Source of the DNA: Thermoplasmatales archaeon SW_10_69_26
Lineage (GTDB): Archaea; Thermoplasmatota; SW-10-69-26
Assembly: GCA_003009755.1 (NCBI GenBank)
Contig: PXUB01000042.1
Span: 730-64,729 of the forward strand
Length of the DNA: 64,000 bases
Reading direction: 5' to 3'
Shown: positions 17,877-19,594 of the stretch, piece by piece
How positions within the stretch are numbered: position 1 is the first letter of the stretch
Layout of the letters: every line of letters starts with the position of its first letter
Made by a program: the position numbers and the translations under genes
Notes under the pieces: model-generated
Told to the model about the DNA's origin: nothing
What the model saw: the letters and a program-made list of their open reading frames with translations, nothing else
Database searches by the model: none

Positions 17877-18273
17877 ATGGCGGCCCGCGGGCTCGCGGTG
17901 AGAGCGCGACGACTGCATGGTCCTCGAACGGATACGGCTCGTCAGAGCCGCACGAATCACGAGGAGCAAGCCGTTCGCGGGGCTGCATTGGCACATCGGG
18001 GCGCTCGTCTCGTGGTACGACGGTTCCCGCGAGATGGTCGTTGCTCGGCGCCGACCGTCGAGCGAGTCCGGCCCCCTTTTTGGGCCGGACGACTTACGAG
18101 GAGCGGGCCGGCCGGGACGGGGACACTCGTTTCCGCCGTGGGACGGTGGTCTCGTGGTATGACGGCTCCCGTGAGAAGACCGGTGTCGATCGTCCGGTCT
18201 TCGAGCGAGTACGGCTCGTCAGAGCCGTACGAATTACGAGGAGCTAGCTGTTGGCGGGTTGTATTCGCACGGC
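17877..18273 (+). repeat. Three tandem degenerate 5'-tRNA-Val copies with twin-hairpin inserts
   Basis: Units at ~17877, 17998 and 18140; inserts 18029-18093 and 18171-18233 sit inside the anticodon loop. Confidence 0.85.
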
Positions 18274-18345
18274 GGGGCGGTGGTCTAGTGGTATGACGGC
18301 TCCCTTACGAGGAGCAAGCCGCAGGTTCAAATCCTGCCCGCCCCA
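18274..18345 (+). tRNA. tRNA-Val(TAC)
   Basis: GGGGCGG/CCGCCCC-A acceptor, GCTCC-CTTACGA-GGAGC anticodon arm, GGTTCAAATCC T-arm. Confidence 0.95.
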
Positions 18346-18354
18346 TTCGTAGCA

Positions 18355-18471
18355 GGGCAGGATTTGAACTCTGGTTCAATCGCGAAGGGCCGGAGGCTAC
18401 GCGCGGTCCTTCGCGAGAGCCCGAACGCGCGTCGATAGGTGCAACGTTCGGGTGAAATCCTGCCCGCCCCA
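18355..18471 (+). repeat. tRNA-Val 3'-end duplication with twin-hairpin insert
   Basis: GGGCAGGATTTGAAC, GGTTCAA, two hairpins, then AAATCCTGCCCGCCCCA (identical to 18329-18345). Confidence 0.85.
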
Positions 18472-18833: not shown

Positions 18834-18906
18834 AGCCCGGTGGTGTAGCGGCCAATCATTTCGGCCTTTGGAGCCGAATACGCAGGTTCGAATCCTGCCC
18901 GGGCTA
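18834..18906 (+). tRNA. tRNA-Gln(TTG)
   Basis: AGCCCGG/CCGGGCT-A acceptor, TCGGC-CTTTGGA-GCCGA anticodon arm, GGTTCGAATCC T-arm. Confidence 0.95.
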
Positions 18907-19583
18907 TGGGATCGAGGACCTGCTCCTCAGCCTCTCCCGTCGCCAGCGTCTCGCCAAGGCTGGCTGACGGTGTCGCGCTGCGTCGAAAGCCCGCAGGGGG
19001 ATTTCTTCCTCGCGCTCCTTGTCAGACAGCCTTGGCGCGGGCCCCGCCGGGCCCGCCCGGATGGGAGACGCTGGCTCGGTCCGAGGCATCGTCGCCGGTC
19101 CTCGGTCCCTGCGGATACCGCTGGTCGTCAGCGGGCAGGATGAGAACCGCAGGTTCGATCGTGAGAGCCGGTGGAAGAGCGGGCGGTTCTCACGAGCGGC
19201 CGAACCGGCGTCCACTGCTCGGTTCGGCCAGAATCCTGCCCGGGCTATACCGGTCGAGTCCTCGTTCCTCAGGTTCTCCCGTCGCGAGCACCTCGCCAGC
19301 CGCCGCTGACGGTGTCGCTCTGCTTCGGAAGCCCGCAAGGGGATTCCTGCATCGAGCTCCTTGCCAGCGACGGCTGGCGCGAGCTGAAGGCTCGCCCAAC
19401 GGGAGGTGCTTACTCGGTCCGAACACATCGTCACGAAGACTCGACCGGTGCTCCAATCGCGGATCGTAGAGGGCAGGATGAGAACCTTGGTTTGATCCCG
19501 AGGCGCGGTGTCGACCGCACGCGTCTCGGGAGCGGCCGAACCGGCGTTCACTGCTCGGTTCGGCCAGAATCCTGCCCGGGCTA
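18907..19583 (+). repeat. Two tandem ~340-bp structured units, each ending in the tRNA-Gln 3' end
   Basis: GAATCCTGCCCGGGCTAT at 18890, 19231 and 19567; the units are diverged but their stems co-vary. Confidence 0.9.
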
Positions 19584-19594
19584 TCCCTCCTACC

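What the first reader, a model, noticed from the sequence alone, without database searches (positions are those of the whole stretch)
18907..19583. Two ~340-bp units after tRNA-Gln containing a ~200-nt co-varying nested structure
Seen, unit 1: ATCGAGGACC(18911)/GGTCCTCGGT(19097), CCAGCGTCTC(18943)/GAGACGCTGG(19065), CCAAGGCTG(18954)/CAGCCTTGG(19027). Unit 2 at equivalent positions: ACCGGTCGAGTC(19249)/GACTCGACCGGT(19438), AGCACCTC(19287)/GAGGTGCT(19403), CCAGCCG(19296)/CGGCTGG(19371). Stems change sequence while loop segments (CTCCCGTCGC, GCTGACGGTGTCGC, AAGCCCGCA, GCTCCTTG, CTCGGTCCGA) stay fixed. Each is followed by the T-arm cloverleaf module and the tRNA 3' end. Inference: an unannotated structured RNA or ssDNA element under selection for its fold, carried as cargo in the tRNA-anchored array.
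Basis: seen in the sequence. Interest (0 to 1): 0.75.

Follow-up and report, generated by a model that had tools for sequence, protein, structure and literature searches.

The report
Structured hairpin repeat behind archaeal genes
The two look-alike 200-base folded elements after the glutamine tRNA gene are real copies of an uncatalogued family of rod-shaped repeats that sits directly behind stop codons and tRNA ends in a small group of salt-loving archaea, resembling the hairpin repeats known from bacteria.

Summary
Observation confirmed: every quoted stem is at its coordinate. Both units fold far better than shuffles (z -7.6, -6.3). 16 of 75 pairs changed on both sides between the units and stayed paired.

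The ~200-nt "cargo" is not special to this locus. It is one member ("class A") of a dispersed family: 14 strong copies in this 2.8-Mb genome, and copies in 6 of 40 related genomes searched. It has no Rfam match. Internal loops are conserved and stems covary (31 of 37 pairs in relatives; 23 of 37 on an unfitted alignment).

Copies lie directly behind stop codons (TFS, RpoN, ribosomal S10, thermosome) or tRNA 3' ends, co-oriented wherever the upstream gene call is clear. Presence at a given gene is patchy between relatives, and copies cluster within this genome. Its centre also occurs inside IS630-type MITEs.

Best reading: a REP/ERIC-like structured repeat, co-transcribed as a 3' trailer hairpin, gained and lost over time. 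In a relative it is missing from the loop of the conserved tRNA-Gln trailer hairpin.

RNA versus single-stranded DNA is unresolved: no RNA data, and no wobble asymmetry outside two conserved columns. Earlier scan notes flagged hairpin repeats in this genome and similar repeats elsewhere.

The parts
18834..18906 (+). tRNA-Gln(UUG) gene, the anchor of the array
   Evidence: ARAGORN; Rfam tRNA model 61.6 bits
18908..19109 (+). Class A structured element, copy 1. Outer stem P1 is 18908-18920 paired with 19097-19109. The conserved core matched by model R1 is 18924-19090.
   Evidence: Fold z -7.58; R1 hit 118.4 bits at G000:C42:19653-19819; pair counts
19131..19247 (+). T-arm module 1. It holds an antisense copy of the tRNA-Gln T-arm/acceptor 3' strand (19131-19148), a copy of the T-stem 5' strand plus the start of the T-loop (19148-19158), two further hairpins, and an 18-nt copy of the tRNA 3' end (19230-19247).
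   Evidence: the repeat finder D2, D6, D8, I5, I10; downstream tail search; fold
19249..19449 (+). Class A structured element, copy 2. P1 is 19249-19260 paired with 19438-19449. The R1 core is 19266-19428.
   Evidence: Fold z -6.26; R1 hit 137.8 bits at G000:C42:19995-20157
19470..19583 (+). T-arm module 2. The antisense arm is 19470-19486 and the tRNA 3'-end copy is 19566-19583.
   Evidence: the repeat finder D2, D5, D8, I9, I11
18274..18471 (+). tRNA-Val(UAC) (18274-18345) with its own cargo-less T-arm module. The antisense arm is 18355-18369, with 15 of 15 complementary bases. The 3'-end copy is 18454-18471.
   Evidence: (I8, D3). A related-strain contig (run X4) skips 18329 to 18456 exactly between the direct repeats.

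Best explanation
The ~200-nt 'cargo' is a member of a lineage-restricted, dispersed family of rod-shaped structured repeats, which I call class A. Each copy is a long imperfect hairpin. It has an outer stem P1 of free sequence, several inner stems, one variable side branch and an apical hairpin. These are joined by internal loops of fixed sequence, namely UCCCGUCG, CUGACGGYGUCGC, CUGCNUCG twice, GCUCCUUGYCAG and CUCGGUCCG.

Copies begin within a few bases of a stop codon or of a tRNA discriminator base. They point the same way as the upstream gene wherever that gene call is clear.

Most likely mechanism (inferred): the element is transcribed as the 3' trailer of the upstream gene. The folded rod then acts at the RNA 3' end as a barrier to 3'-to-5' decay and/or a protein-binding or processing mark, as described for ERIC, bcr1 and REP repeats in bacteria. 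Behind tRNAs it would be released by 3'-end cleavage of the precursor.

The family is gained and lost on an evolutionary time scale by an unknown copying process. No terminal inverted repeat, target duplication or dedicated transposase was found.

In the window it lies in the loop of a larger trailer hairpin. That hairpin is formed by the tRNA-Gln T-arm 3' strand and its antisense copy in the T-arm module. The unit of element plus module, bounded by 17-18-nt copies of the tRNA 3' end, is present twice. Recombination between those repeats probably produced this.
For: SHOWN:
- Fold and compensation between the two units.
- Family size. Iterative nhmmer gave 28, then 57, then 72 hits. Model R1 gave 35 hits at E<=0.01 in this genome, 14 of them at 93.9-159.7 bits.
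- Relatives. 6 of 40 related genomes have hits. That is 4 of 5 in the same family and 2 in other families of the class. 5 of 6 genomes of the order have hits, counting G000.
- Covariation on the 19 relatives' copies: 89.8% of cells paired against 65.7% when shuffled, 31 of 37 pairs with double changes, and slid controls at 33-44%.
- Covariation on the unfitted MAFFT alignment of 13 own copies: 92.9% against 75.9%, 23 of 37 pairs, slid controls 37-45%. RNAalifold found 28 of 43 pairs compensated.
- A related-strain contig carries G18910A together with C19107T, the two sides of one P1 pair.
- Position in relatives. 12 of 13 full-length copies follow a stop codon and 1 follows tRNA-Gln. For the 11 with a correct ORF call (all but L054), the stop ends 2-17 nt before the R1 core, which itself begins after the P1 strand of about 13 nt.
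- Position in this genome. Of the 14 strong copies, 5 follow tRNA 3' ends or copies of them, 5 follow ORFs with coding-type GC3 of 0.81-0.93, 3 follow ORFs with atypical GC3, and 1 is unclear.
- Upstream genes by Pfam: TFIIS-type zinc ribbon, RNA_pol_N, a Glyoxalase-superfamily dioxygenase, PIN_9, Cpn60_TCP1, Ribosomal_S10 and RraA-like.
- Turnover. The element is present behind TFS in 1 of 4 relatives and behind tRNA-Gln(UUG) in 1 of 4. Behind RpoN it is in 0 of 2 assessable relatives. Copies in G000 are each other's nearest relatives at 0.79-0.81 identity.
- It is not coding.

BACKGROUND: repeats at gene 3' ends that are co-transcribed, affect mRNA stability and keep RNA structure by compensatory change are described in PMC3184786 (passages read).
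Against: - No RNA data exist for this organism in the runs offered, so transcription of the element is inferred only from position and orientation.
- The wobble test does not single out the + strand. There are 58 G-U against 27 A-C cells, but 40 of the G-U lie in two conserved columns. Outside those columns the count is 18 G-U against 27 A-C. The fold would therefore form equally well on the other strand or in single-stranded DNA.
- Presence at orthologous sites is patchy even within one genus: G005 has the element and G003 lacks it at two sites. The two copies behind the same RraA-like gene in that genus are not each other's nearest relatives. Both fit a selfish, replaceable element as well as a needed one.
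- No oligo-T tract follows the elements: 3 of 26 have T4+ within 120 nt, against 3.4% of random windows. Their relation to termination is therefore unknown.
- The copying mechanism is not identified.
Confidence: 0.5

Rival explanations
1. A purely selfish, non-autonomous mobile DNA hairpin of MITE, PATE or REPIN type. Its fold would be a single-stranded or cruciform DNA structure read by a transposase or recombinase supplied in trans. Its position behind stop codons would reflect only where insertions are tolerated or targeted.
For: Copies cluster within the genome at 0.79-0.81 identity. Presence is patchy at orthologous sites, including within one genus. The central module is shared with about 50 IS630-type MITE copies whose terminal repeats match an autonomous 1132-bp element carrying DDE_3 and HTH_33. 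There is no wobble asymmetry outside two columns. The build is modular and nested, with inserts in apical loops.
Against: Class A itself has no conserved terminal inverted repeat. P1 differs between copies and covaries. No TA or other target duplication was seen at its ends. No Y1 transposase (PF01797) and no TnpB domain (PF07282) was found in the 95%-complete assembly. Loops are conserved while stems drift, which is the opposite of what a transposase-bound terminal repeat shows. The strict co-orientation with the upstream gene is not expected of insertion without polarity.
Confidence: 0.25
2. A stand-alone small RNA with a function in trans. It would be cut out of tRNA trailers and 3' UTRs, with the tRNA-like T-arm modules in this array acting as punctuation for RNase Z or RNase P.
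For: Behind tRNAs the element starts within 2 nt of the discriminator base, where precursor cleavage would free its 5' end. In the window each copy is followed by a module ending in a tRNA 3' end. The internal loops are fixed in sequence across genera, as for protein- or RNA-binding sites.
Against: Tens of diverged copies per genome with free stem sequences are unusual for a trans-acting RNA. The T-arm module does not score as a tRNA (no RF00005 match there at E<=10). Most copies, those behind protein genes, have no such module. No expression data exist.
Confidence: 0.1
3. A folded single-stranded DNA recombination site of the integron attC kind, or an attachment site of tRNA-targeting integrases. 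It would mark joints at which DNA segments are inserted behind genes.
For: attC sites also lie right behind stop codons and keep structure while sequence drifts (recalled knowledge, not tested here). The units in the window are bounded by 17-18-nt tRNA 3'-end repeats. These have the same extent as the 18-nt repeats that flank a 13.75-kb element carrying an integrase gene at tRNA-Phe. A related strain lacks the tRNA-Val module exactly between its repeats.
Against: Those repeats bound the T-arm modules, not class A itself. Class A copies behind protein genes have no flanking direct repeats. No copy of the upstream gene's tail was found within 900 nt for the copies examined (the run stopped after item 31 of 72). 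The upstream genes are scattered housekeeping genes, not cassette arrays. The three tyrosine recombinase matches lie beside other tRNAs.
Confidence: 0.08
4. A by-product of a mutational process, namely template switching at hairpins that extends and copies palindromes in the G+C-rich spacers. There would be no selection on the fold beyond what the process itself makes.
For: The genome is full of hairpin modules behind genes (earlier notes). 16 of 57 tRNA calls are followed within 45 nt by an antisense copy of their own T-arm, which must be templated.
Against: The same loop sequences and the same helix order are kept across at least four genera and two further families, with 31 of 37 pairs compensated. 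A purely local mutational process would not produce this.
Confidence: 0.05

Closest known systems
ERIC/IRU repeats of enterobacteria and the bcr1 repeat of the Bacillus cereus group (review PMC3184786, passages read)
   Same: These are elements of 100-200 nt that fold into a long imperfect hairpin. They lie in transcribed 3' regions of genes, with tens of copies per genome. RNA-level structure is kept by compensatory changes (stated for bcr1). An effect on upstream mRNA stability has been shown for ERIC.
   Different: ERIC-type repeats have terminal inverted repeats and TA flanks; class A has neither. Class A keeps its loop sequences and lets all stems drift. It occurs in archaea, also follows tRNA genes directly, and no effect on mRNA has been tested.
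REP/BIME/REPIN elements mobilised by RAYT (Y1) transposases
   Same: G+C-rich extragenic palindromes just behind stop codons, often clustered in mosaics with other hairpin modules.
   Different: REPs are 20-40 nt and are tied to a RAYT gene. Here the unit is about 200 nt and no Y1 transposase domain was found in the assembly.
IS630-family MITEs of the same genome (my 'class B')
   Same: They share a homologous central module (P4-P7: CUGAG..GUCG..CUGCAUCG-hairpin-CUGCUUCG..CUCCUUG..CUCAG) and are picked up by the same profile and covariance model.
   Different: Class B has ~34-bp terminal inverted repeats (TAGACTGCCGG...), TA flanks and near-identical copies. It also has an autonomous relative with a DDE_3 transposase. 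Class A has none of these.
tRNA-linked repeats of the E. coli tyrT operon / RtT RNA (Rfam RF00391)
   Same: A tRNA gene followed by tandem units that each end in a copy of the tRNA 3' end (recalled). The second T-arm module gives a full-length but weak match to RF00391.
   Different: The score is 18.1 bits against a gathering score of 45, with E 1.9, so it is not a member. The resemblance concerns the T-arm modules, not the class A element.
Attachment-site repeats of integrative elements in tRNA genes (T-loop sublocation)
   Same: The direct repeats run from the middle of the T-loop to the discriminator base. This is the same extent as the repeats flanking the 13.75-kb element carrying an integrase gene at tRNA-Phe in this genome.
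   Different: The segments bounded here are only 126-341 nt and carry no genes.

Membership tests
Any Rfam 15 family | Covariance-model score at or above the family's gathering score | tested here: not met
   Only the two tRNAs pass in the whole window. At E<=10 nothing matches 18907-19112 or 19249-19456.
RtT RNA (RF00391) | Score at or above 45 bits | tested here: not met
   19457-19586 scores 18.1 bits, E 1.9.
MITE (for example ERIC, Correia, IS630-derived) | Terminal inverted repeats conserved between copies and shared with an autonomous IS | tested here: not met
   The outer stems of class A differ between copies and covary. The IS630-type repeat TAGACTGCCGG is absent from class A ends.
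MITE (for example ERIC, Correia, IS630-derived) | Target-site duplication at both ends | tested here: not met
   No shared flanking di- to pentanucleotide was seen at class A ends in the 13 own and 13 relatives' copies read. This was inspection by eye, not a statistical test.
MITE (for example ERIC, Correia, IS630-derived) | Presence/absence polymorphism between related genomes | tested here: met
   Behind TFS in 1 of 4 relatives, behind tRNA-Gln in 1 of 4, behind RpoN in 0 of 2. In the other direction, 4 of 10 relatives' host genes carry the element in G000.
REP/REPIN | Short (20-40 nt) palindrome with an associated RAYT (Y1_Tnp) gene | tested here: not met
   The unit is about 200 nt. PF01797 gives 0 matches in the own genome, which is 95% complete.
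TnpB/IscB guide RNA (omega RNA / reRNA) | Lies at the end of, or next to, a TnpB or IscB gene | tested here: not met
   PF07282 gives 0 matches in the own genome. The upstream genes are diverse housekeeping genes. IscB itself was not searched.
Integron attC site | Arrays of promoterless cassettes next to an IntI integrase | tested here: not met
   Copies lie behind scattered core genes on at least 10 contigs. The three PF00589 matches lie beside tRNA-Gly, tRNA-Phe and tRNA-Glu.
Integron attC site | R/L box motifs and extrahelical bases of the folded bottom strand | not tested
   No attC model was available in these tools.
Structured cis-acting 3'-UTR RNA element | Conserved secondary structure supported by covariation | tested here: met
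Structured cis-acting 3'-UTR RNA element | Transcribed with the upstream gene | not testable with these tools
   No RNA run was listed for this stretch.

The most novel reading that the evidence does not exclude
Class A is a dedicated 3'-end module of an archaeal lineage that has largely given up oligo-U terminators. In this reading the folded rod recruits a specific protein through its invariant loops, and so sets and protects the 3' ends of tRNA precursors and of mRNAs of highly expressed genes. In the tRNA-Gln array the tRNA-like T-arm modules would act as punctuation that releases two such RNAs. Two observations fit this. Relatives of one genus have a plain T5 run behind tRNA-Gln where this genome and two genomes of another genus (G003, G005) have the structured modules. 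No T-tract follows the elements.
Probability: 0.12. Interest if true: 0.75.

Novelty: new variant of a known kind. Interest (0 to 1): 0.45.

Why it matters
Large structured repeats behind stop codons are well described in a few bacteria but hardly at all in archaea.

This family has unusually clear covariation, invariant loops and a defined position behind both tRNAs and housekeeping genes. That makes it a good case for asking two questions: whether such repeats are selfish DNA or working parts of the transcript 3' end, and how RNA 3' ends are defined in G+C-rich archaea that lack obvious terminators.

It also cautions annotators that 'novel structured RNAs' found next to tRNA genes may be members of dispersed repeat families.

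Tried and rejected
- Known RNA family: rejected.
- Protein-coding: rejected. The overlapping ORFs have GC3 of 0.65-0.74, against 0.81 or more for clear genes here. The lengths of the 27 cores are spread over all residues mod 3, and no frame is open in all copies.
- TnpB guide RNA or IS200/605 end: no PF07282 or PF01797 match in the genome.
- Wider distribution by a three-motif DNA pattern. Genome contigs gave 29 matches, of which only 1 (L068, titled an uncultured Thermoplasmatales archaeon MAG) was confirmed by model R1. Viral contigs gave 0. Metagenome contigs gave 27 matches with 0 confirmed. The pattern matches only about a third of true copies, so this is weak evidence of absence.
- Expression: no RNA holder was listed for the stretch.
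- Search for copies of the upstream gene's tail downstream of the elements. Nothing was found beyond the tRNA repeats for items 0-31 of 72. The script then hit its time limit and had an error at contig ends.
- Wobble asymmetry as a strand test: inconclusive.
- Oligo-T behind the elements: not enriched enough to interpret, 3 of 26.
- One-unit variants of the array. Contigs of runs X3 and X4 skip 337 and 343 nt, but depth is low and likeness 85-95%, so they may be assembly collapse.
- K-turn and bulge-helix-bulge motifs were looked for by eye in the loops and not seen. No tool test was run.
- A loose 15-nt motif scan for 'empty' sites gave 378 mostly chance matches and was not used.
- Literature. 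Searches found no paper on this element. I read only passages of PMC3184786, and supplements were not consulted.

Full report
**1. The observation**

The region was read. tRNA-Val (18274-18345) and tRNA-Gln(UUG) (18834-18906) are the only RNA genes that ARAGORN and Rfam recognise in the window.

Behind tRNA-Gln lie two units, 18907-19247 and 19248-19583. Each consists of:
- a ~200-nt nested hairpin (18908-19109 and 19249-19449);
- a short linker;
- a ~115-nt multi-hairpin 'T-arm module' that ends in an 18-nt copy of the tRNA-Gln 3' end.

The units fold far better than dinucleotide shuffles: z -7.58 and -6.26, with 0 of 100 shuffles as good in each case.

Of the 75 pairs of the unit-1 hairpin, in unit 2 41 are unchanged, 2 changed on one side and stayed paired, 16 changed on both sides and stayed paired, 14 are broken and 2 are gapped.

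**2. A family, not a local oddity**

BLAST and an iterated nhmmer profile of the two hairpins found 28, then 57, then 72 matches in the 2.8-Mb, 49-contig genome. Reading them showed two classes.

*Class A* looks like the window copies. It has the same order of helices and the same internal-loop sequences, but different stem sequences.

*Class B* shares only the central module. It ends in a near-invariant terminus, and its copies are close to identical. Class B turned out to be a MITE:
- It has ~34-bp terminal inverted repeats beginning TAGACTGCCGG and TA flanks.
- 22 left-right end pairs lie 101-672 bp apart, out of 104 ends in the genome. Many ends sit at contig ends.
- There is one 1132-bp autonomous copy (G000:C32:89545-90676) whose frames carry DDE_3 (3.4e-22) and HTH_33/HTH_32, the make-up of IS630-family transposases.

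**3. Structure and covariation**

Thirteen class A copies of this genome were aligned with MAFFT (A1, A2). RNAalifold predicts 43 pairs, 28 of them with compensatory changes.

| Alignment | Sequences | Cells paired | Shuffled | Slid by 1-3 columns | Pairs changed on both sides |
|---|---|---|---|---|---|
| A2, unfitted MAFFT core | 13 own copies | 92.9% | 75.9% | 37-45% | 23 of 37 |
| A3, fitted to model R1 | 19 relatives' matches | 89.8% | 65.7% | 33-44% | 31 of 37 |

A covariance model R1 (158 positions, 37 pairs) finds 35 matches in this genome. Fourteen of these score 93.9-159.7 bits. It also finds matches in 6 of 40 related genomes: 4 of 5 of the same family, covering three other genera, and one each in two other families of the class. 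None was found in the other 34. The order holds only these six genomes, and 5 of the 6 have a match.

Alignment A3 is fitted to the model, which favours the structure, but the unfitted A2 gives the same picture.

There is also a population-level case. One contig of run X3 carries G18910A together with C19107T, the two partners of one P1 pair, and G19105A, which turns a U-G into a U-A pair.

No Rfam family matches, even at E<=10.

**4. Position**

*Relatives.* In the relatives, 12 of 13 full-length copies start just behind the stop codon of a co-oriented gene. The thirteenth follows tRNA-Gln(UUG). For L054 the gene end was read, because picked a wrong ORF. For the other 11, the stop ends 2-17 nt before the model core. 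That leaves room for little more than the ~13-nt P1 strand, and in L041 the TAA lies inside P1.

*This genome.* The 14 strong copies sit as follows:

| Context | Copies |
|---|---|
| Behind a tRNA 3' end or a copy of one: tRNA-Gln twice, tRNA-Met, the last 3'-end copy behind tRNA-Leu(CAG), and the distal repeat of a 13.75-kb insertion at tRNA-Phe | 5 |
| Behind ORFs with coding-type GC3 of 0.81-0.93 | 5 |
| Behind ORFs with atypical composition | 3 |
| Context unclear | 1 |

*Upstream genes.* Pfam names them as a TFIIS-type zinc ribbon (TFS), RNA polymerase subunit N, a Glyoxalase-superfamily dioxygenase, PIN_9, thermosome (Cpn60_TCP1), ribosomal protein S10 and an RraA-like protein. One further gene ends in a motif that I recall as typical of ribosomal stalk protein P1, but Pfam gave no match.

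The elements are not protein-coding.

**5. Turnover**

The element is found behind the same gene in different genera:
- TFS in G000 and G005;
- a 409-aa zinc-ribbon gene in G000 and G003;
- the RraA-like gene in G000 (truncated), G003 and G005;
- the P1-like gene in G000 and G002;
- S10 in G002 and G005;
- tRNA-Gln(UUG) in G000 and G005.

Direct checks show patchiness:

| Site checked | Result |
|---|---|
| TFS | element in 1 of 4 relatives that have the gene |
| tRNA-Gln(UUG) | 1 of 4 |
| RpoN | 0 of 2 assessable |
| Reverse test: relatives' host genes in G000 | 4 of 10 carry the element |

G005 and G003 belong to one genus, yet they differ at both the TFS and the tRNA-Gln site.

In identity over model columns, G000 copies are nearest to each other (TFS, C3b and the tRNA-Phe copy at 0.79-0.81). 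G005-TFS is nearest to G000-TFS at 0.71. The two copies behind the RraA-like gene in one genus are not nearest to each other.

So the family is old. It is kept at some sites, and it is also copied, lost or replaced.

**6. The tRNA context**

The tRNA-Gln loci compare as follows:

| Genome | Arrangement behind tRNA-Gln(UUG) |
|---|---|
| G003 | tRNA, a 29-nt loop, then the antisense arm of the T-arm module |
| G005 and G000 | class A fills that loop |
| G001, G004 (another genus) | a plain T5 run and no module |

Class A is therefore optional cargo inside a larger trailer hairpin. That hairpin is made of the tRNA T-arm/acceptor 3' strand and its downstream antisense copy. In all three genomes with a module, it contains the same 2x2 GA/GA mismatch.

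T-arm modules are a genome-wide feature. 15 of 57 ARAGORN calls have a second copy of their own 3' end 91-323 nt downstream, and 16 of 57 have an antisense copy of it within 45 nt.

A related-strain contig lacks the tRNA-Val module exactly between its two repeats: it skips 18329 to 18456, with 16 shared letters.

The repeats run from mid T-loop to the discriminator. This is the same extent as the 18-nt repeats that flank the 13.75-kb element carrying an integrase gene at tRNA-Phe. The duplication of the unit in the window is thus most simply explained by recombination at these repeats. This is inference.

**7. What it is and how it most likely works**

*Shown:* a conserved, covarying ~200-nt fold with fixed loops, a dispersed family, a strict position and orientation behind gene ends, turnover, and a centre shared with IS630-type MITEs.

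*Inferred:* the element is transcribed as the trailer of the upstream gene and acts as an RNA 3'-end hairpin in stability, processing or protein binding. This is the behaviour reported for ERIC, REP and bcr1 in bacteria (PMC3184786, passages read).

*Against certainty:*
- There is no RNA evidence.
- Outside two conserved G-U columns, wobble pairs do not favour the + strand: 18 G-U against 27 A-C.
- No T-tract follows the elements.
- No copying mechanism was found. There are no terminal repeats and no target duplication. The 95%-complete assembly has no Y1 transposase or TnpB match.

The main rival is a selfish mobile DNA hairpin. It explains the turnover equally well, but it explains less well the drifting ends, the fixed loops and the polarity.

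**8. Comparison and novelty**

The element works like ERIC, bcr1 and REP repeats, but it fails the defining tests of MITEs (terminal repeats, target duplication) and of REPs (size, RAYT). It is in no Rfam family.

The T-arm modules resemble the tRNA-linked repeats of E. coli tyrT, but they score far below the RtT threshold.

Earlier notes of this scan had already described hairpin modules and scrambled tRNA fragments in this genome (e1-891441, e1-5086123, e1-5086129). They had also described stop-codon-abutting hairpin repeats in other lineages.

I rate it a new variant of a known kind, of moderate interest.

Noticed in passing
window 18346-18471; genome-wide in G000: 15 of 57 ARAGORN tRNA calls are followed 91-323 nt downstream by a second copy of their own 3' end (mid T-loop to discriminator). 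16 of 57 are followed within 45 nt by an antisense copy of their T-arm. The modules between these copies hold fragments of the tRNA itself; for example, 19164-19180 resembles the tRNA-Gln 5' end and D-arm.
   Followed up: partly
window 18329-18456: A contig of run X4 from a related strain joins 18329 to 18456, with 16 shared letters. It therefore lacks the 126-nt T-arm module behind tRNA-Val exactly between its direct repeats.
   Followed up: partly
L135 (G003), L134 (G005), window 19131-19160: The antisense arm of the tRNA-Gln trailer module (GGATGAGAACC..GGTTCGATC) is conserved in three genomes of two genera. With the tRNA T-arm it forms a helix containing the same tandem GA/GA mismatch. Two genomes of another genus (L132, L133) have a T5 run there instead.
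   Followed up: partly
L140:101-1232 (G000:C32:89545-90676): A 1132-bp IS630-family element (DDE_3, HTH_33/32, frames offset as for a frameshift). Its terminal repeats match about 50 MITE copies of 101-672 bp with TA flanks. Many of these lie at contig ends and probably caused the assembly breaks.
   Followed up: yes
G000:C19:58975-72742 (L141, L142): A 13.75-kb segment bounded by 18-nt direct repeats of the tRNA-Phe 3' end. A tyrosine recombinase match lies beside the tRNA, which suggests an integrated element. A class A copy starts right after the distal repeat.
   Followed up: partly
G000:C2:48094-48420: The class A copy behind the P1-like gene is split in its apical hairpin by an insert of roughly 200 nt with lower G+C. 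The copy behind the same gene in G002 (L051) also has an enlarged apical hairpin.
   Followed up: no
L038:1560-1630 (G005): The class A copy behind tRNA-Gln in G005 carries an internal tandem duplication of about 35 nt of its 3' core strand.
   Followed up: no
window 18200-18304: Contigs of runs X1 and X4 'go back 105' from 18304 to 18200, with 29 other letters between. The repeat finder shows a 15-nt copy of the tRNA-Val anticodon arm at 18234-18248. This suggests a partial tRNA-Val copy or tandem variant upstream of the gene.
   Followed up: no
G000:C38:54420-54520 (minus strand): A short version of class A lies behind a stop codon. It has the outer shell (CTCGG..GGCTCCCTC ... CCTCGGTCCGACCCC) enclosing only a small hairpin. 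This suggests that the shell and the centre are separable modules.
   Followed up: no
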